Sequence record: NC_047979.1
Reading direction: 5' to 3' (one strand)
Source: Escherichia phage Gostya9
DNA: 64,000 nucleotides
Made by a program: the position numbers and the translations under genes. The notes beneath the pieces were generated by a model. That model saw nothing but the letters and a program-made list of their open reading frames with translations, was not told where the DNA came from and did no database searches. Below are positions 9,879 to 59,297 of this stretch, piece after piece (within the stretch, counting starts at the first letter, position 1; each line of letters begins with the position of its first letter).

Positions 9879-9912
9879 AGCCAGGTTGCTAGTCGACCTG
9901 GCTTTTATTTTA
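9879..9912 (+). terminator. Rho-independent terminator after nrdD
   Basis: agccaggt / acctggct stem followed by tttatttt. Confidence 0.6.
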
Positions 9913-11474: not shown

Positions 11475-11643
11475 ATCTGTATGTACACATCCCGATGATA
11501 TATTTGTATGGGCGGATGGTAGTTGGTGTTATCGATGTGAGCTATGGGAAATGGACTATAAATCCGATGACTATGGTGTCATATATGTTGATACGGTTGA
11601 GTATGATACGTTCTTAGAAAGGAACAAAAATGGAAATAAGTAA
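11461..11643 (+). CDS. Hypothetical small Cys-rich protein (60 aa)
   Basis: ORF overlapping the upstream stop; Cys/His/Trp-rich (C..H.....W..C..C). Confidence 0.35.
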   Translation: MSIVKSVCTHPDDIFVWADGSWCYRCELWEMDYKSDDYGVIYVDTVEYDTFLERNKNGNK

Positions 11644-12016
11644 TACTCCAATTATTTTTCTAGACATTGATGGGGTGCTTAATTCGAGCATCTCCCATCA
11701 CCATGCACCTGATGATGAAAAGGTTTTCTTTGGAAGTGACTGGGTTTTTAAACCGCTTCTCAAGGTTTTTCAGGACTTTATTCGTCCTTCTCCAATAATG
11801 ATTGTTGGGGTATCCTCATGGTTCTCTGTCAGGAATGAGATGGAGAACGTTCAGATTATGACCGGATTAGGTCTTATCGATCGTTTTCTTGGTATAACGG
11901 GTTTTACTGGTGGTGGGCTATCTAGAGGTAATTCTGTTCTTCACTTCGTTGAAAAGCATAAGCTCAAACATTGGTGCTATGATGTATCAGTATCCAACGG
12001 TTATAGTCAACGGTAG
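11630..12016 (+). CDS. HAD-superfamily hydrolase-like protein (possible nucleotidase), possibly frameshifted
   Basis: N-terminal IIFLDIDGVLNS matches HAD motif I (DxDGV/T); aaaggaac RBS. Only 128 aa, with a second ORF (11910-12116) continuing in another frame. Confidence 0.4.
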   Translation: MEISNTPIIFLDIDGVLNSSISHHHAPDDEKVFFGSDWVFKPLLKVFQDFIRPSPIMIVGVSSWFSVRNEMENVQIMTGLGLIDRFLGITGFTGGGLSRGNSVLHFVEKHKLKHWCYDVSVSNGYSQR

Positions 12017-12118
12017 AACTGGAATAAATCTTCAAGATTTAAGAGCTGTTAGCTATATGCTAGAATTTAGTCCAGATCTTGAAATGTGTAAAGCTCTACA
12101 ACAATTTAAGGTGTAAAT

Positions 12119-12547
12119 ATGTTCAATAATGTATTCTCTAAAGAAGCTAACCCAATATTGGTTAATTTTTGGCGTACTCTTCCAGCCAACCTGTACAATG
12201 AGGCTATTAATGCTCTGAAAATATGGTGTGAGAATAATGAAATCTCCTTTGCTTTTAAGGATGAGATTGAAGAAGCTCCCTGTATTGGTTTAATTGTGCA
12301 GGTAGAGGATGGCTTTGAAGAGATTGTCGGCTGGAAAGAGTTGGATGAAATGGGATTGGTTTTTGCATTAAACTATAAGCTGTTTATGCCTAATAAACAC
12401 CGTATTGTTGTTAATTATAAAACCAGTGAATCTCCTGGTTTTCAAGTTAATGAACATTACGGTTGGTCTTACTCACCGGAAGAAGTAAATGATGGTATCC
12501 AAAGACTTCGTCGTTTTGGTTATCAAATTCCGGGTTTAACTGCCTAA
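12119..12547 (+). CDS. Hypothetical protein, paralog A of a tandem pair
   Basis: Shares with the next ORF PC(I/V)G...(W)xEL..MGL(V/I)xAL(N/D)..LF.P and a C-terminal G(Y/I)(Q/Y)(I/V)PGL block. Confidence 0.55.
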   Translation: MFNNVFSKEANPILVNFWRTLPANLYNEAINALKIWCENNEISFAFKDEIEEAPCIGLIVQVEDGFEEIVGWKELDEMGLVFALNYKLFMPNKHRIVVNYKTSESPGFQVNEHYGWSYSPEEVNDGIQRLRRFGYQIPGLTA

Positions 12548-12556
12548 GGGGGCACA

Positions 12557-12949
12557 ATGGAACAAGTATATTGGCGTCAGATTGATCCTAGTTTGGTGAA
12601 GAGTGCGGAGAAGCTGCTACAACGTTGGTTGGGGGTAAGACAAGCCTCCTTCACTTTTCCGGAGCAGCAAATAGACGATCCCTGTGTTGGTGTTTTCCTA
12701 TCAGGCTACGCTAGGGAAGTGGAATTGGATTGGAATGAATTGTCTGCTATGGGTTTAATTGTTGCACTAGATTTCTCTTTGTTCCATCCAAGTGGTTTGG
12801 CAATATGTCGTGTGCCTGATGACGGTTGTTCGCCCCATCTTTTACAGGTGGAAGATAATATTTGGGAGTACCCTCCAGATATTCTCAAAGAAGCTAAAGA
12901 ACAATTAAATCGTGTTGGGATTTATGTTCCAGGCCTGAATGATGAATGA
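12557..12949 (+). CDS. Hypothetical protein, paralog B of a tandem pair
   Basis: See paralog A; gggggc RBS before the ATG. Confidence 0.55.
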   Translation: MEQVYWRQIDPSLVKSAEKLLQRWLGVRQASFTFPEQQIDDPCVGVFLSGYAREVELDWNELSAMGLIVALDFSLFHPSGLAICRVPDDGCSPHLLQVEDNIWEYPPDILKEAKEQLNRVGIYVPGLNDE

Positions 12950-12972
12950 TTTTTATTAGCTGAACTCTGATT

Positions 12973-13000
12973 ACCGAGTCATTTTGGCTCGGTTTTCTCT
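12973..13000 (+). terminator. Rho-independent terminator
   Basis: accgag / ctcggt stem followed by tttctct. Confidence 0.45.
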
Positions 13001-13040
13001 ATGCTCAAAGACACTGGTAGCAGCATCCGGAAAATTTTAC

Positions 13041-13069
13041 TTGCATGATGCCCAAAATCTTGATATAAT
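13041..13069 (+). promoter_or_regulatory. Early promoter TTGCAT-17-TGaTATAAT with no ORF behind it for about 600 nt
   Basis: aaaattttacTTGCATgatgcccaaaatctTGATATAATatttatattgaattgagagac; downstream 13070-13666 has no ORF of 60 aa or more on either strand. Confidence 0.5.
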
Positions 13070-13666
13070 ATTTATATTGAATTGAGAGACATTAGTAAAA
13101 ATTGATTTTGCTAATTTTTCTTAGTGAAGCTGACAAGGGATTTACGGCGAGAGGAATCGATGACCCGTAAATAGCTGCATAAGGTACGTTGCTAGAGCTT
13201 TACGAAAAAGTTTTTTCTTGTTTACAATCCGCGATACGGAACAGTTAGGCTGCCCCATTAAGGGTTGTTTTAACTGTTACGTGTTAGTTTTTAAACAACT
13301 AATTAATAGAATACTTAGCGATCTGCGTCCCATAGGAACCCTGGTAAGGCCTCGAAGCAACCTAGTATGAGGTGGTTGTGAAGTGAGATGGGAGGAGTGA
13401 AAAACTACCGAGACGTGATTCTGTAAGTTATATTGCATCTAGTATGAGCTAGTATATGAAGCATTAGGTGAGCAAATCTGGCTTAGCGGCCATCCTCAAG
13501 GATTTGTGCGGTATAATGAGGCAGCAGCGCAGCGTGAAAGTGGAAGTTGCCACCCCACTTCAGTATTTGCAATTAATTTGTTGAGAAATTGACAGTAACA
13601 GTTGTTCTATTCTTTCTGAATAGTCCTAAAGAAAACTTATTTCATTTCCAACACAGGAGTATTGTT

Positions 13667-16456
13667 GTGTTTTCAATCCTACAAGGTCATGCAGGATTTC
13701 ATCGCGATTTAGCCACGGGCAATTGGCGAGAAGTTAAAGCAGAAGATTATCTTTTTGCTAAAAGATTTTCCTCAAAGCATCCTGAAGGTAAACCAGCTTC
13801 AATGCCCTTCAAGTTTGATGTAATTGACGAAGTTGATCCTCAAACCCTAGTAGAAATGCTCCCTCTTATGAGACGTTTAACGTCTGACCCTCATATCGTT
13901 GCGGTACGAGGTCGATGTCTTGCACCTAAAAATAATGTGCGGCGTAAGAAGGGCAACTTTAATGTATCTAATCCTAGTAATATTATTGCTATGGACGTGG
14001 ATGGTATTGTAGATACAGGTGGTTGTAACAAGTTTGATCTTGTTGGCATGGCTCGACATATTATTAGGATGTTAAATAGTATTAGTGAGGATATGTTTCC
14101 TCTTGATGCAGGGTTTATTGCTCATGCATCGTCTTCGGCTGGGCTAAAACCAGGTATCCGAATGCACTTAATACTAGAATCTAATGTTAAAGTAACTCAG
14201 GGTCAAATCAAGTTCTTATTTACATCTATCAACGAAAGTAGTAGACAAAAGTATGGCTTTGATATTGCCGACTTAGCTTATTACTCTTCCGTACAGCTCC
14301 ATTATTTTGCAGATCCTCTATTTATTGATGGTATAGTTGATCCGTTTAAAGCGGAGGGTGCTTCACGTCTGGTATTTGTTAAGGGTTCTAAAGTAAATTT
14401 ACCTAATAATCTAGTTGACTATGAAACAACTAGAGGAGAGTTTAAAGAGGAATTCTACTCTTTACTCGATCAAATTAAAGGTAAAAAAGCTGCCTCTGAT
14501 AAAGTAGAGGAAACTATCAGTGAGCTAGAAGAGGCTGATGATGGGGTATACTTACGTATTATTCCAAAGCTATATCACCGAGCGTTAGAGGATGGGGTAG
14601 ATTTTGGTTGGCTAGAAAAAGAAATCCGCCCAGCTTTATCAGAATATATTGCAACTAAAGATAATAGCCGTAATATTCAAGACTACTTTAACAACGGTCG
14701 AAAACAGGCTCTGAAAGCATTTGTTAATAATTCTAAACGTGATATACCCGATGTTTTAAAAGGTATTCCGCTTAAAAAGCTAGAAACTAATTCACTAGAG
14801 ACCGACAACTTCTTGAAATTAAATACTGTACCACCAGAAGGCTATATGACTTTTGTAAAAGCAAGTCTAGGTACAGGTAAAACCACGGCGGTTGTGCGTT
14901 GGCTGGATTCAGGAGTTATTAAAGGTAATTTCTTAGCAGTTACCAACACTAGAGCACTGGTATCTTCAAATGCTAAGAAATTTAGTGCAGGACAATACGA
15001 TAAGTCTGTAGATATGCTTAATTTTAAGCGTGGTGCTATTGACCGTATGTCCACAACCATTCACTCTTTGCATAAGTTTAAGAGTTTTATTGGTCAAATT
15101 GATGCAATCTTTATAGATGAATGTGATGCAGTAATGAATGACCTATTATTCGCCCCGGTTGTTAAGCAACGTCGTGAGTGTATTCAGGTTCTTCGTGATA
15201 TTCTTGCAACTGCAAAAATCATTATACTATCCGATGGTGATATTAGTGCCGAGACGATTGAAGCATATGGTTCTTTGATTGAGTTCGATAAACCAGTTGC
15301 ATTCTATAATCATCACCGTAAGATGCTGTCAAAAGCTCATGCTTATGAGTTCCCTGATGAGTCCAGTATTTGGGTTGCACTTCAGACTTCTCTAGAGATG
15401 GGTGAGAAATCTATTCTAGTATCTGATTGTGGCCCTGATGAGCTGAATGAGAAGGGTATGGCACTACGTCGTAATACTGGTGCATTAGTTAAAGAAATCC
15501 ATTCAAACTCCACTTCAGATGTGGATATTCGACGTATTCTGGATTATACAACTAATGAGCTAATTGATCAACAAATTGATTGCTTATTATGTAGTCCATC
15601 CGTAACGAGTGGTGTTGACTTTAACTATTTCGATAATGTATTTGTTATTACTAGAACCAGTAATCAGGCGCCAAACATGCGTTTTCAAGCAATCAGGCGC
15701 GACCGTGGTGCTCAGAATATCTATTATTTTATTGATAAATCCACTAGTGGATTCTCTGCGGGTTCTGAACAATATAATATCGATGAAGGTTGGCTGGAGT
15801 TAGCACAGCAATTATATGCACGTCGCAGGGAGCTGGAGTCTAGGAACTATACTAGTACTTTACGTTATTACTTGCTTGATCAGGGTGCAACTATTGATAT
15901 TTTCAGTGAAAGCTGGGGAACTATTGAAGGTGCTGGTAAAGAATACACAGAAGAGCGAATCAAAGCTATTCTACATTCAACTCCTGATTATTGTGCTCCA
16001 CGTCATGCGGATGCGTATGAGGCTAAACTACTTATTGTTCGCTATTATCATCTTGAGTCTATTAAAGATGTAACAGTTGAGCATGTTGAACAATATATCA
16101 AAGATAAGCCGAATGATCGAGCTGCATTCTTCCATAAGATGCACGAGATGTTCTGGGAAGATATTAAGAAGTGTTCAAATGTGACCATTAAACCATTCAT
16201 AGAAGCTCTGAAAGGTAAGAAGAAAGATTTCTTCCTTAAAACAGGTCAGAGTGCTAACCCAAAATATGCTAGAATGTATCTTGGTATGATGGGTATTGGT
16301 AAAGATATGAACACGGAGAATATCGTAGACTGGTATAGAACCTACTGCAAAATCGAATGTATGCCAATTCCTTTCAAATTCATGACAGAAGAAGAGAAAG
16401 CTATGGCAGAAGAAGCAATGTCAGAGCTAGGTGCTAGAAATGACAGTGAAGAATAA
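13667..16456 (+). CDS. Large replication ATPase, origin-binding-helicase-like
   Basis: Walker A KASLGTGKTTAVV and Walker B IFIDECDAV in the middle of a roughly 930-aa protein. Start placed at GTG 13667 (aggag RBS 7 nt upstream); the track begins at TTG 13589, so the start is uncertain. Confidence 0.6.
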   Translation: MFSILQGHAGFHRDLATGNWREVKAEDYLFAKRFSSKHPEGKPASMPFKFDVIDEVDPQTLVEMLPLMRRLTSDPHIVAVRGRCLAPKNNVRRKKGNFNVSNPSNIIAMDVDGIVDTGGCNKFDLVGMARHIIRMLNSISEDMFPLDAGFIAHASSSAGLKPGIRMHLILESNVKVTQGQIKFLFTSINESSRQKYGFDIADLAYYSSVQLHYFADPLFIDGIVDPFKAEGASRLVFVKGSKVNLPNNLVDYETTRGEFKEEFYSLLDQIKGKKAASDKVEETISELEEADDGVYLRIIPKLYHRALEDGVDFGWLEKEIRPALSEYIATKDNSRNIQDYFNNGRKQALKAFVNNSKRDIPDVLKGIPLKKLETNSLETDNFLKLNTVPPEGYMTFVKASLGTGKTTAVVRWLDSGVIKGNFLAVTNTRALVSSNAKKFSAGQYDKSVDMLNFKRGAIDRMSTTIHSLHKFKSFIGQIDAIFIDECDAVMNDLLFAPVVKQRRECIQVLRDILATAKIIILSDGDISAETIEAYGSLIEFDKPVAFYNHHRKMLSKAHAYEFPDESSIWVALQTSLEMGEKSILVSDCGPDELNEKGMALRRNTGALVKEIHSNSTSDVDIRRILDYTTNELIDQQIDCLLCSPSVTSGVDFNYFDNVFVITRTSNQAPNMRFQAIRRDRGAQNIYYFIDKSTSGFSAGSEQYNIDEGWLELAQQLYARRRELESRNYTSTLRYYLLDQGATIDIFSESWGTIEGAGKEYTEERIKAILHSTPDYCAPRHADAYEAKLLIVRYYHLESIKDVTVEHVEQYIKDKPNDRAAFFHKMHEMFWEDIKKCSNVTIKPFIEALKGKKKDFFLKTGQSANPKYARMYLGMMGIGKDMNTENIVDWYRTYCKIECMPIPFKFMTEEEKAMAEEAMSELGARNDSEE

Positions 16457-57128: not shown

Positions 57129-58342
57129 TCTTTATCTCCCTCGGTGGAACCTTGAGGTCTACCACCTTCTTGACCAGATACACCTGTTGCAGAACCAGCA
57201 ACGTTAGCAGGAATACGAATCCTATTCATCTGCTCATCATCTAAAGGTTCAAGGTTCAGCTCTAAACGAGCTTCGTTACCAGTCATAATACCATTATTAA
57301 CCAATGAGGTTAAATGTTTAGCCTCAGCTTCTTTATCTGGTGTTAATGCAGCTACCTCCTTAGTATTAGGGGTAATCCTATAACCAAAAAAGAAAGTAAG
57401 AGAACTAGTCAGTTTGTTCAGCATAGGAATGATAGTCATATAATAGAACAATTCGATGTTTGGTCGAATATTCGCATTATTACCACCATCAATCAGTACT
57501 TGCGGAACACCAAAGGCTAGACAGATAGATTTATTAAATCCTGCGATGTCTTCCTTAAAGTCTAGATCTTTAAAAGAGGATATTTGGGAGTACGGTTTAG
57601 CTTTCATACCACCATCTAGAATCAGGACAGAAGACTGACCCGTACTAGGATTATAATCGAGTTGTAATTCTTCTTGTTTACGCTCACGCAATTTCTTGTT
57701 CAGGATTTCATCCGTTTCAAGAATAAGACCAATCACGGTTCCGTTATCTAGGAACTTCTCTTTAAAGTTAAGCATTTTAGAACGCTTCTCAAGAGAATCA
57801 ATAACAGTAGCAACACGAGATTGTCCAGAAATTTGAGAATTTGTGCCACACACGTAACTGTTATCCTTTATAAAGATAATCTCATCTACGCGATAGTTTA
57901 TCTGATTATTAAATATAAATTTTTTGATAAACTTATTGGCATCTGCCTCGACCTGCATAAGAGCGGCCGGGACGTGGTAAAGCGATGTGCCATCCCAATA
58001 GATGTATGCACAACCCTCAAAAAGTAGGTCAGTGACTACAAGTCTACGGAATGTGCTTATATCCATGAATGGATTAGGTCGTACATTTAAGAGAGTGTCT
58101 AGAGTCTTTGTTTTGACGCCATTAGCGTACGTAACAATATTATATTTATCTCCGACAGTATAAGAACACTCCGCCGCACTATCTATAACCATATTGGCAG
58201 TTCGATTGAGAATCTCAATCTTGCTATAGGCTTGTCCAGTGGTAAAAGGCTTACGGTTAGTGCGATGACTAACTGGTTCCATGTCTCTTATAATACGTTG
58301 ACCCGGATTTAGCTTTTCAGTAATCCAGCTTTTAAAACCCAT
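57125..58342 (-). CDS. Portal protein
   Basis: 405 aa directly downstream of terminase/HNH and upstream of the protease. Confidence 0.7.
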   Translation of the reverse strand: MGFKSWITEKLNPGQRIIRDMEPVSHRTNRKPFTTGQAYSKIEILNRTANMVIDSAAECSYTVGDKYNIVTYANGVKTKTLDTLLNVRPNPFMDISTFRRLVVTDLLFEGCAYIYWDGTSLYHVPAALMQVEADANKFIKKFIFNNQINYRVDEIIFIKDNSYVCGTNSQISGQSRVATVIDSLEKRSKMLNFKEKFLDNGTVIGLILETDEILNKKLRERKQEELQLDYNPSTGQSSVLILDGGMKAKPYSQISSFKDLDFKEDIAGFNKSICLAFGVPQVLIDGGNNANIRPNIELFYYMTIIPMLNKLTSSLTFFFGYRITPNTKEVAALTPDKEAEAKHLTSLVNNGIMTGNEARLELNLEPLDDEQMNRIRIPANVAGSATGVSGQEGGRPQGSTEGDKE

Positions 58343-58794
58343 TATAAGAACCTTGCGAATCCTGATTTTGTTTCAGTCTTGACTTGTGTCTTTTCTTGAG
58401 GATTCTGTAATTTGTCTTTCTGCTTTTGAACCCATGCTTTCTGTTTATCAGCAGAAAATAATGGAGGTTCTTTCGTGTAAACCTTATGTAGTAATTGGTG
58501 ATGGTGCTGGCACAATGTTACCACGTCCCTAACTAACTCATGCTCATATTTCTTGTAGAATGCTTCCCTATTTGAAAGGACGATATTCTCATCAGTGAAA
58601 TCCAGCTGGAGTTCTTTAGCAAATTTTTTTATTAGCTGAGATATAGTATGATAATGGTGAAGTTCTAGGTCTTCACTACTACCACATATAGCACAGCAAC
58701 CATCCTTACTATACCTAGATTTTATACCATCCCTCATTATAGAAATGGCATCACGTTTGTACTTAGTATTAGTGGCCATAATCCTCCAATCCAA
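58342..58794 (-). CDS. HNH endonuclease, terminase-associated
   Basis: CAICGSSEDLELHHYH...LCQHHHQLLH HNH/Zn motifs; 150 aa; between terminase and portal. Confidence 0.75.
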   Translation of the reverse strand: MDWRIMATNTKYKRDAISIMRDGIKSRYSKDGCCAICGSSEDLELHHYHTISQLIKKFAKELQLDFTDENIVLSNREAFYKKYEHELVRDVVTLCQHHHQLLHKVYTKEPPLFSADKQKAWVQKQKDKLQNPQEKTQVKTETKSGFARFL

Positions 58795-59297
58795 AGCTAC
58801 TTAGAAAGATTACTATATCCTCTAGGGCAACATTGAGATTCCATCTAATGTGGTATAGCATATATGACCCTTATTGTGTTATAGATGTAGTTTTTATTAG
58901 TATAGTTATTTGATAGCACATACCCTATTCTGAGTATTTTGGCTTTAATAGCTACATCTAGTGATATAGTGTAGAGGTGTAATGTGGTGTTGCTTCCCAA
59001 ACGTGTGCTCTCTGGCATTTAAATACTGTTTTTGTACGTTGGTTTACATATTCACCGACAATTTGGATTCCACGATCAGCTAATCTAATATTTATATCTT
59101 TTATTGTTAGCTTTTGTCGACCCGTAGAATCTCCTACACCTCATGTAGAGCATTAATTTTTTCTTGTTTACGTTCTATTATGGGAGAAGTTCTCCCGATC
59201 AATGAATATAGTATACATAATCGTATCGAATTTGTAAAGGGGATTTTAAAATACAGGAATGGGATACCAACTGAGTAGTATCCCATCCTATACTTAT

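What the first reader, a model, noticed from the sequence alone, without database searches (positions are those of the whole stretch)
12119..12949. Tandem paralogous gene pair of unknown function
Two adjacent ORFs of 142 and 130 aa share a conserved core and C-terminal block but differ in flanking sequence, indicating an old tandem duplication that has been retained. Duplicated small accessory genes in phage early regions are often host-takeover factors.
Basis: seen in the sequence. Interest (0 to 1): 0.4.

Follow-up and report, generated by a model that had tools for sequence, protein, structure and literature searches.

The report
Duplicated DUF7415 early genes of T5
The two adjacent genes are real, anciently duplicated copies of a small acidic phage protein (T5.106 and T5.107, Pfam DUF7415) whose function is still unknown; this is a known but uncharacterised gene pair, not a new kind of system.

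Summary
ORF A (12119-12547, 142 aa) and ORF B (12557-12949, 130 aa) are paralogues: 30% identity over 126 residues, E=2e-19, shuffle z=26. The window is a T5-like phage, and the pair is T5.106/T5.107 (96% nt identity). The pair lies contiguously in at least 435 Demerecviridae records. Both copies are under purifying selection.

Each protein has a lineage-specific N-terminal lobe and a widespread ~55-residue core, Pfam DUF7415. The core usually occurs as a stand-alone 60-110 aa protein in T4-like, P2-like and other phages of Gammaproteobacteria. B keeps the family's conserved motif, and it is the only copy in Pectobacterium T5-likes. A has lost the motif, so it is probably the derived copy.

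The genes end an early operon (nrdD | small ORFs-Sir2-HAD-A-B | terminator), outside T5's pre-early host-takeover region. A published CRISPRi-ART screen marginally calls T5.107 a fitness gene and T5.106 not.

My best guess is an acidic protein-binding accessory factor of replication or nucleotide supply. That is an inference; the function remains unknown.

The parts
12119..12547 (+). ORF A, 142 aa, orthologue of T5.106. It is the diverged paralogue and has lost the family's HP-GLA motif.
   Evidence: ORF. 96% nt identity of the pair to T5 58097-58927. DUF7415 at 113.6 bits. AF2 pLDDT 87.7. dN/dS 0.07-0.16.
12557..12949 (+). ORF B, 130 aa, orthologue of T5.107. It keeps the ancestral DUF7415 core motif.
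   Evidence: It scores 61.0 bits against my single-domain HMM, versus 30.9 for A. dN/dS 0.19-0.54. T5.107 is called 'Fit' in CRISPRi-ART.
12161..12304 (+). N-terminal lobe of A (residues 15-62). In the phage collection this lobe is found only in T5-like phages.
   Evidence: Scanned alone, it hits Pfam DUF7415 at 64.7 bits. My own profiles did not detect homology to the core.
12317..12493 (+). DUF7415 core domain of A (residues 67-125).
   Evidence: hmmsearch with a profile of 51 single-domain homologues gives E=2e-11. Pfam gives 52.9 bits when the half is scanned alone.
12563..12706 (+). N-terminal lobe of B (residues 3-50).
   Evidence: Pfam DUF7415 at 57.2 bits when scanned alone.
12722..12904 (+). 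DUF7415 core domain of B (residues 56-116), carrying the conserved W-N-E-L-S..G-L...H-P.G-L-A...D.G.S-P...W-E-Y motif.
   Evidence: hmmsearch E=9e-21. Also hits phrog_3954 at E=9e-17.
12108..12113 (+). Shine-Dalgarno-like AAGGTG, 5 nt before the ATG of A. The stop codon of the upstream reading frame (12114-12116) lies 2 nt before the ATG.
   Evidence: Read directly from the sequence.
12546..12552 (+). Shine-Dalgarno-like AAGGGGG between the stop codon of A (12545-12547) and the ATG of B (12557). The intergenic spacer is 9 nt.
   Evidence: Read directly from the sequence.
12973..13003 (+). Intrinsic terminator-like hairpin plus T-run, 24 nt after the stop codon of B. It marks the end of the operon.
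   Evidence: Terminator scan. T5 has an annotated terminator at the equivalent place, 58952-58976.

Best explanation
Shown: the two ORFs are the T5.106 and T5.107 orthologues of a Tequintavirus. They are tandem paralogues, are closely spaced with their own ribosome-binding sites, and are the last two genes of an early operon. That operon starts after the nrdD terminator and ends at a terminator just after B. Each protein is a compact, acidic (pI 4.5-4.7) two-lobed alpha/beta protein. Its C-terminal lobe is the widespread ~55-residue DUF7415 core. Its N-terminal lobe is restricted to T5-like phages in the phage collection. The whole two-lobed gene was duplicated before Markadamsvirinae and the Klebsiella T5-likes diverged. 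B retains the ancestral sequence motif and A has diverged from it, yet both are under purifying selection.

Inferred: DUF7415 is a non-catalytic protein-binding or oligomerisation module. It works alongside the phage's early DNA-replication and nucleotide-handling enzymes. B carries the ancestral activity, which contributes measurably to phage growth even on a laboratory host. A is a sub- or neo-functionalised partner, possibly forming a heteromer with B. No step of this mechanism has been demonstrated.
For: Paralogy. Identity with T5.106/T5.107. Operon boundaries: terminators at 9879-9903 and 12973-12993, matching the T5 annotation.

Conservation: the tandem pair is contiguous in at least 435 of 439 matching records. 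The synteny nrdD-Sir2-(HAD)-A-B-origin-binding helicase is kept in T5, ESCO40, SB10, phiR2-01 and Klebsiella P5010. Purifying selection and orthology are shown.

B is ancestral-like. It scores 61 bits against the single-domain profile, versus 31 for A. The Pectobacterium T5-likes My1 and DU_PP_V carry a single copy, and it is B-like.

Domain partners: dATP/dGTP pyrophosphohydrolase, thymidylate kinase, ASCH/DUF3850, a DEDD exonuclease, HTH_37, Lar, DUF5405 and DUF551.

Neighbours: the core lies between nrdD and nrdG in Jiaodavirus. It lies beside a NUDIX gene and near a dNMP kinase gene in Slopekvirus. It lies in the frd-td-HAD-nrdA.1-denA-rnlA cluster of Aeromonas phage PX29. It lies next to the gpA replication initiator in 8 of 17 locus groups and next to a ribonucleotide reductase large subunit in 3 of 17.

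Experiment from the literature: in the CRISPRi-ART screen, T5.107 is one of 17 'Fit' genes of T5 (score -2.90, KS p=0.0215, 5 guides). T5.106 is 'Not Fit' (-3.28, p=0.167) (PMC11879866, supplement 16). B is the last gene before a terminator, so a polar effect on downstream genes is unlikely.

Independence from Sir2 and HAD: phage DT57C has deleted most of Sir2 through HAD but keeps A and B intact. In this window the HAD gene is frameshifted.
Against: No partner protein, ligand or activity is known. Guilt by association is weak in phage early regions. The fusion partners are many and each is rare: at most 2 of the 51 longer homologues scanned share any one partner domain. Small ORFs inside nrd clusters can be anti-defence genes, such as T4 nrdC.1 against Septu (bioRxiv 10.1101/2025.11.20.689424).

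The single-domain family has several nearly invariant polar residues (S, N, H, S, Y). Those would also fit a ligand-binding or catalytic site.

The CRISPRi-ART call for T5.107 is marginal. The p-value of 0.02 is uncorrected among roughly 150 genes, and many known essential genes are 'Not Fit' in the same screen.

An A-B heteromer was not tested.
Confidence: 0.35

Rival explanations
1. Anti-defence or host-protein inhibitor. A and B would be acidic decoy or inhibitor proteins that bind and neutralise a host factor such as an immune sensor, a restriction enzyme or a nucleoid protein. The duplication would have allowed two targets or two variants of one target.
For: The proteins are small and strongly acidic. 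The fold has no known enzyme relative. The duplicated copies have diverged. The core is fused to a Lar restriction-alleviation domain in some prophages, and a PAPS-reductase-type gene lies beside it in others. Small ORFs in phage nrd clusters have proved to be anti-defence genes (T4 nrdC.1).
Against: dN/dS is low, especially for A at 0.07-0.16, with no sign of the diversifying selection typical of arms-race genes. The pair is fixed in essentially all Markadamsvirinae rather than patchy. T5.107 knock-down has a marginal fitness cost on a laboratory E. coli strain. No anti-defence library was available to test this idea; PADLOC covers defence systems only and gave no hit.
Confidence: 0.25
2. Ligand-binding or catalytic domain. 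The DUF7415 core would bind or convert a nucleotide-like small molecule such as a dNTP, NAD/ADP-ribose or a signalling nucleotide. B would be the active copy and A a degenerate regulatory copy.
For: Polar residues are nearly invariant in a 55-residue domain: S10, N19, H24, S39 and Y52 of the single-domain alignment. B keeps them, while A has lost the Ser and His. The core is fused to nucleotide enzymes, namely dATP/dGTP pyrophosphohydrolase and thymidylate kinase. In the same operon as A and B sit a Sir2 (NAD-dependent) gene and a HAD phosphatase gene.
Against: No similarity to any nucleotide-binding fold. The domain is very small for an enzyme. Sir2 and HAD can be lost while A and B are retained, so a shared pathway is unlikely.
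Confidence: 0.15
3. The genes encode an exonuclease, as annotated in some GenBank and RAST records ('Phage exonuclease (ACLAME 70)').
For: The label appears in records such as ESCO40, GEC_vB_N5 and T5_ev212/ev219.
Confidence: 0.02
4. The genes encode a tail tube or other virion structural protein, as annotated in several records.
For: The label 'tail tube protein' or 'tail protein' appears in DU_PP_V, vB_Sen-E22, HMD-P5, JLBYU43 and other records.
Against: The genes lie in the early operon between nrdD and the origin-binding helicase gene, not in the late structural block. There is no structural similarity to tail tube proteins. In the DU_PP_V record the gene in the Sir2 slot is likewise labelled 'tail assembly protein', so that record's labels in this region are unreliable.
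Confidence: 0.01

Closest known systems
Phage T5 genes T5.106 and T5.107 (hypothetical proteins YP_006934 and YP_006935)
   Same: They are direct orthologues. The 831-nt pair is 96.1% identical in nucleotides. Lengths (429 and 393 nt), order, spacing, flanking genes and downstream terminator are the same.
   Different: In this window the upstream HAD gene (the T5.105 orthologue) carries a 20-bp frameshifting deletion. The pair itself is intact.
Pfam DUF7415 (PF24187) and PHROG phrog_2502
   Same: Both proteins score far above the Pfam cut-off and match phrog_2502 end to end.
   Different: Most family members are single-domain proteins of 60-110 aa, found in T4-like and P2-like phages and in prophages. 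The two-lobed 130-145 aa form was found only in T5-like phages in the phage collection, and the tandem A+B pair only in a subset of those.
Single-domain DUF7415 genes of T4-like Klebsiella phages (for example KP179 gp172, phrog_3954)
   Same: They share the core domain and the W-N-E-L-S...H-P-L-G-L-A...G-x-S...W-E-Y motif, and they also lie in an early nucleotide-metabolism context.
   Different: They have one domain and are a single gene. The gene is embedded between nrdD and nrdG and overlaps both. They lack the N-terminal lobe.
Small accessory ORFs in phage nrd clusters, such as T4 nrdC.1 (a Septu inhibitor)
   Same: They are small proteins of unknown fold encoded among nucleotide-metabolism genes.
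   Different: There is no sequence or structural relationship. The comparison is an analogy only, cited as a caution against reading function from position.

Membership tests
Pfam DUF7415 (PF24187) | Score against the family HMM at or above the gathering threshold of 27 bits | tested here: met
   A scores 113.6 bits and B scores 100.7 bits.
PHROG phrog_2502 (two-lobed T5-type form) | Full-length match to the 134-position profile | tested here: met
   A residues 11-142 match profile positions 2-134, E=2.8e-62. B residues 1-129 match positions 4-134, E=1.6e-58.
Tandem paralogue pair (T5.106/T5.107 type) | Significant pairwise similarity, adjacency on one strand, and orthologues of each copy in related genomes | tested here: met
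   E=2e-19. The genes are 9 nt apart. A-type and B-type orthologues are present in five other T5-like genomes.
Internal repeat (each protein made of two DUF7415 units) | The N-terminal and C-terminal halves are homologous to each other | tested here: inconclusive
   In favour: each half scanned alone passes the Pfam threshold (64.7, 52.9, 57.2 and 47.5 bits), and both halves have the order strand-helix-strand-strand. Against: pairwise z is only 0.2-2.0. My N-lobe profile finds no single-domain member. hhalign gives an in-register but weak match, reached by 10 of 300 column shuffles. The N-lobe modelled alone matches only the N-lobe of a T5-like B orthologue in BFVD.
Exonuclease (DEDD / RNase T / Rv2179c-like) | Match to a nuclease family profile or nuclease fold with its acidic catalytic motifs | tested here: not met
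Tail tube protein | Tail-tube fold and location in the late structural module | tested here: not met
T5 pre-early host-takeover genes | Location in the first-step-transfer region, about the first 10 kb of the genome | tested here: not met
   The orthologues lie at 58,097-58,927 of the 121,750-bp T5 genome. The extent of the first-step-transfer region is taken from PMC11879866 and PMC13250531.
Known anti-phage defence proteins (PADLOC) | Match to a PADLOC model | tested here: not met
   No hit at E<=1. PADLOC does not cover anti-defence proteins.

The most novel reading that the evidence does not exclude
DUF7415 may be a structurally new, phage-specific domain. It has no PDB relative by fold or by sequence profile. 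Its ancestral form, represented here by B (T5.107), would be a needed accessory factor of phage DNA replication or deoxynucleotide supply. It would have been recruited repeatedly next to ribonucleotide reductase and replication-initiator genes and fused to nucleotide enzymes. In T5-like phages it would have duplicated into an obligate A/B heteromer in which one subunit has lost the conserved site.
Probability: 0.2. Interest if true: 0.55.

Novelty: already known. Interest (0 to 1): 0.3.

Why it matters
The pair is conserved in hundreds of T5-like phages, including phages used or proposed for therapy and biocontrol. Its core domain occurs in at least 908 of the 50,697 phage records searched. 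Even so, nothing is known about what it does. One copy (T5.107) is among the few T5 genes of unknown function with a measurable, if marginal, fitness signal in a genome-wide knock-down screen.

This analysis gives experimenters a cleaner starting point. It defines the domain boundaries. It says which copy looks ancestral and which derived. It shows that the neighbouring Sir2 and HAD genes are dispensable for retention of the pair. It also shows that the 'exonuclease' and 'tail tube protein' labels now spreading through databases should not be trusted.

Tried and rejected
1. Internal duplication within each protein. Pfam suggests it, but I could not reproduce it with my own profiles, with hhalign plus a column-shuffle control, or by modelling the N-lobe alone and searching BFVD. 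One hhalign run gave 96% probability for N against C. That was an artefact: a few sequences were cut in the wrong place, so N-lobes ended up in the C-lobe file. I discarded it.

3. Sequence relatives in the PDB. None were found with either single sequences or profiles.

4. Hits to very long proteins in the representative search, with many short stretches each. The two I scanned carry bacterial Ig-like, cadherin and Kelch repeats. I treated all of these hits as spurious repeat matches.

5. Apparent extra DUF7415 paralogues next to the single-domain genes in my neighbour clustering. These were single-linkage artefacts caused by fusion proteins (DUF5405, DEDD exonuclease), not real tandem copies.

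6. Functional dependence on the neighbouring Sir2 and HAD genes. I rejected this because HAD is absent in Klebsiella P5010 and apparently in DU_PP_V, is frameshifted here, and is deleted together with Sir2 in DT57C, while A and B persist.

7. RNA families, repeats and promoter scans in and after the pair found nothing beyond the terminator.

8. Literature searches for DUF7415, PF24187, the PHROG numbers and the protein accessions found no functional study. The phiR2-01 proteomics paper does not mention the orthologues in its main text, and no supplement is held for it.

Full report
**What is there.** The window carries two closely spaced ORFs on the + strand: A at 12119-12547 (142 aa) and B at 12557-12949 (130 aa). 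Each is preceded by a Shine-Dalgarno-like sequence: AAGGTG at 12108-12113 and AAGGGGG at 12546-12552. Only 9 nt separate the stop codon of A from the ATG of B. A hairpin with a T-run at 12973-12993 follows B. A similar terminator at 9879-9903 closes the preceding nrdD gene. A and B are therefore the last genes of an operon of about 3 kb.

**Is the similarity real?** Yes. BLASTP gives 30% identity over 126 columns, covering A 17-140 and B 5-127, with E=2e-19. A shuffle test gives z=26, with a score of 158 against a maximum of 55 in 2000 shuffles. Both proteins hit Pfam DUF7415 (113.6 and 100.7 bits, cut-off 27) and match phrog_2502 over its full length. The similarity runs over almost the whole length, not only a core and a C-terminal block. 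A differs mainly by a 12-residue N-terminal extension, which is modelled as disordered.

**Where it comes from.** The region is 94-98% identical to Tequintavirus genomes. The 831-nt pair is 96.1% identical to T5 58097-58927, which holds genes T5.106 and T5.107, both annotated 'hypothetical protein'. The gene order is conserved in T5, ESCO40, SB10, Yersinia phiR2-01 and Klebsiella phage P5010: nrdD, terminator, small ORFs, Sir2, small ORFs, HAD, A, B, terminator, a gap of about 600 nt, then the origin-binding helicase gene. P5010 lacks the HAD gene. The whole pair is found contiguously in at least 435 of 439 matching records. tblastn with A finds two places per record in nearly all of 522 records.

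**Age and direction of the duplication.** In all six T5-like genomes compared, including this window, each copy is closer to its orthologue than to its neighbour. At the deepest comparison, with Klebsiella P5010, A to A and B to B are both 36% identical, against 22-27% for A to B. The duplication therefore predates the split of Markadamsvirinae from the Klebsiella T5-likes.
- Both copies are under purifying selection. dN/dS is 0.07-0.16 for A and 0.19-0.54 for B where dS is not saturated.
- The Pectobacterium T5-likes My1 and DU_PP_V (Mccorquodalevirinae) have a single two-lobed copy at this position, and it is B-like. My1's copy matches B at E=1e-14 to 1e-20 and A at about 1e-8. The A slot in My1 holds an unrelated hydrophobic 90-aa protein.
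- Against a profile of 51 single-domain homologues, B scores 61.0 bits, My1 60.9, DU_PP_V 71.5 and A only 30.9.
- B keeps the family's near-invariant residues (S, G-L, N, H-P, G-L-A, G, S, Y). A reads F-M-P-N-K-H-R-I where the family has L-H-P-L-G-L-A.

B therefore looks like the ancestral copy and A the derived one. Whether the Pectobacterium phages never had A or lost it cannot be decided from these data.

**Architecture.** An exhaustive HMM search of 1.84 billion representative proteins found 161 hits at E<=1e-3. Roughly two dozen match the whole profile. The two of these that I traced (P0047, P0052) come from Pectobacterium T5-likes. Most other hits match only profile positions of about 55-110, which correspond to A 67-125 and B 56-116. 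These are proteins of 60-110 aa, or terminal domains of longer proteins. Each T5-type protein is therefore a lineage-specific N-terminal lobe plus the widespread DUF7415 core.

The Pfam model also matches each N-lobe on its own, above threshold, and the model shows strand-helix-strand-strand in both halves. That would make each protein an internal repeat. I could not confirm this independently:
- Pairwise z is only 0.2-2.0.
- My N-lobe profile finds no single-domain member.
- hhalign gives an in-register but weak alignment, reached by 10 of 300 column shuffles.
- The N-lobe modelled alone (pLDDT 82) matches only the N-lobe of a T5-like B orthologue in BFVD.

I leave the internal repeat open.

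**Context of the core domain elsewhere.** tblastn with a single-domain member finds 908 phage records.
- In T4-like Jiaodavirus the gene sits between nrdD and nrdG and overlaps both.
- In Slopekvirus it lies beside a NUDIX hydrolase gene and near a dNMP kinase gene.
- In Aeromonas phage PX29 it lies in a frd-td-HAD-nrdA.1-denA-rnlA cluster, 1.8 kb from a homologue of the T5 HAD gene.
- In P2-like phages and prophages it follows the gpA replication initiator gene.

I also took a census of 101 loci in 17 sequence groups. It found the gpA replication initiator in 8 groups, a ribonucleotide reductase large subunit in 3, and also DksA/TraR zinc-finger, DUF2732, DUF5405, ASCH/DUF3850 and PAPS-reductase genes.

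Fusion partners of the core include dATP/dGTP pyrophosphohydrolase, thymidylate kinase, ASCH/DUF3850, a DEDD exonuclease of the Rv2179c-like family, Lar, HTH_37, DUF5405 and DUF551. The common theme is the early replication, nucleotide and nucleic-acid-handling module. No single partner dominates.

**Database labels.** Some records call these genes 'exonuclease (ACLAME 70)' or 'tail tube protein'. Neither label has support.
- There is no nuclease or tail-tube profile or fold.
- The genes are in an early operon.
- The exonuclease label is plausibly a transfer through proteins in which a real DEDD exonuclease is fused to DUF7415. That step is my inference.
- The DU_PP_V record, which uses the tail-tube label, also calls the gene in the Sir2 slot a 'tail assembly protein'.

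**Experimental evidence in the literature.** No paper mentions DUF7415 or these accessions functionally. The CRISPRi-ART knock-down screen of T5 lists T5.107 among its 17 'Fit' genes, 'of entirely unknown function'. Its fitness is -2.90 with KS p=0.0215 from 5 guides. T5.106 (-3.28, p=0.167), the HAD gene, Sir2, nrdD and T5.108 are 'Not Fit' (PMC11879866, supplements 1 and 16). The call is marginal and the screen is insensitive, since primase and several other known replication genes are also 'Not Fit'. It is nonetheless the only functional datum, and it concerns the copy that looks ancestral. B is followed by a terminator, so a polar effect is unlikely.

**Natural deletions.** In this window the HAD gene (the T5.105 orthologue) has a 20-bp deletion between two TGGTG repeats, with the junction at 11971|11972. 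The deletion shifts the reading frame. Phage DT57C has lost most of Sir2, the small ORFs and HAD in one deletion. P5010 lacks HAD. In all of these A and B are intact, so their retention does not depend on Sir2 or HAD.

**Interpretation.** The following is established: identity as T5.106/T5.107, paralogy, age of the duplication, selection, architecture, early-operon position, and the lack of any known enzymatic fold.

The mechanism is inferred. The evidence in its favour is the acidity, the small size, the absence of a catalytic fold, the promiscuous fusion to and adjacency with replication and nucleotide enzymes, and the weak fitness signal on a laboratory host. From these I judge it most likely (about 0.35) that the DUF7415 core is a protein-binding or oligomerisation module serving the phage's early replication and nucleotide-supply machinery. 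B would carry the ancestral role and A would be a diverged partner.

An anti-defence or host-inhibitor role is the main rival (about 0.25). A ligand-binding or catalytic role comes next (about 0.15).

**Verdict.** This is a real and correctly observed tandem paralogue pair. It is already present in the T5 reference genome, in Pfam and in PHROGs as a family of unknown function. It is ordinary as a finding, but a reasonable target for experiment.

Noticed in passing
window 11630-12116 (junction at 11971|11972): The HAD_SAK_2 phosphatase gene upstream of A, the orthologue of T5.105 (507 nt in T5), carries a 20-bp deletion between two TGGTG direct repeats. The deletion removes the codons for W-C-V-L-D-D-A and shifts the frame. 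The gene now reads as two ORFs, 11630-12016 and 11910-12116. T5, ESCO40 and DT571/2 have the intact gene.
   Followed up: partly
L116 (Escherichia phage DT57C, NC_027356) 1354-1626: DT57C has a larger natural deletion that joins the start of Sir2 to the end of the HAD gene; the record annotates the result as 'defective' Sir2. T5.106 and T5.107 remain intact. Together with the frameshift above, this shows that the Sir2-HAD segment is repeatedly lost in Tequintaviruses.
   Followed up: partly
L003 (Klebsiella phage KP179) 4001-4219: In Jiaodavirus a single-domain DUF7415 gene is wedged between nrdD and nrdG. It overlaps the end of nrdD by 14 nt and the start of nrdG by 29 nt, which suggests translational coupling within the anaerobic ribonucleotide reductase operon. 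The same arrangement is listed for at least eight related Klebsiella phages.
   Followed up: partly
window 12950-13588: A gap of about 640 nt with no convincing ORF lies between the terminator after B and the origin-binding helicase gene. T5 annotates a promoter there and then a long leader. I found no Rfam family and no notable repeats.
   Followed up: partly
window 13589-16456: The mechanical ORF for the origin-binding helicase starts at a TTG and is 955 aa. The PHROG profile aligns only from residue 27, and the T5 gene is 928 aa. The real start is probably about 27 codons downstream.
   Followed up: no
public records: T5-like sequences of this locus appear in records named Listeria phage LM 4-11-1 and 4-14-1 and Campylobacter phage C13, and as partial proteins attributed to Enterococcus faecalis, E. 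coli and Salmonella enterica. These are probably contamination or mislabelled records rather than real host range.
   Followed up: no
L112 (Pectobacterium phage DU_PP_V) 1237-2899: In this record the gene in the Sir2 slot is labelled 'tail assembly protein' and the DUF7415 gene 'tail tube protein'. This may be a source of the 'tail tube protein' label now attached to T5.106/T5.107 orthologues in other genomes.
   Followed up: partly
L113 (Aeromonas phage PX29) 5968-8535: A homologue of the T5 HAD gene and a single-domain DUF7415 gene lie 1.8 kb apart in a T4-like phage, separated by nrdA.1, denA and RNA ligase 1. The T5 record's own notes point to the same pairing in phage Aeh1. This could be a weak conserved linkage or a coincidence.
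   Followed up: partly
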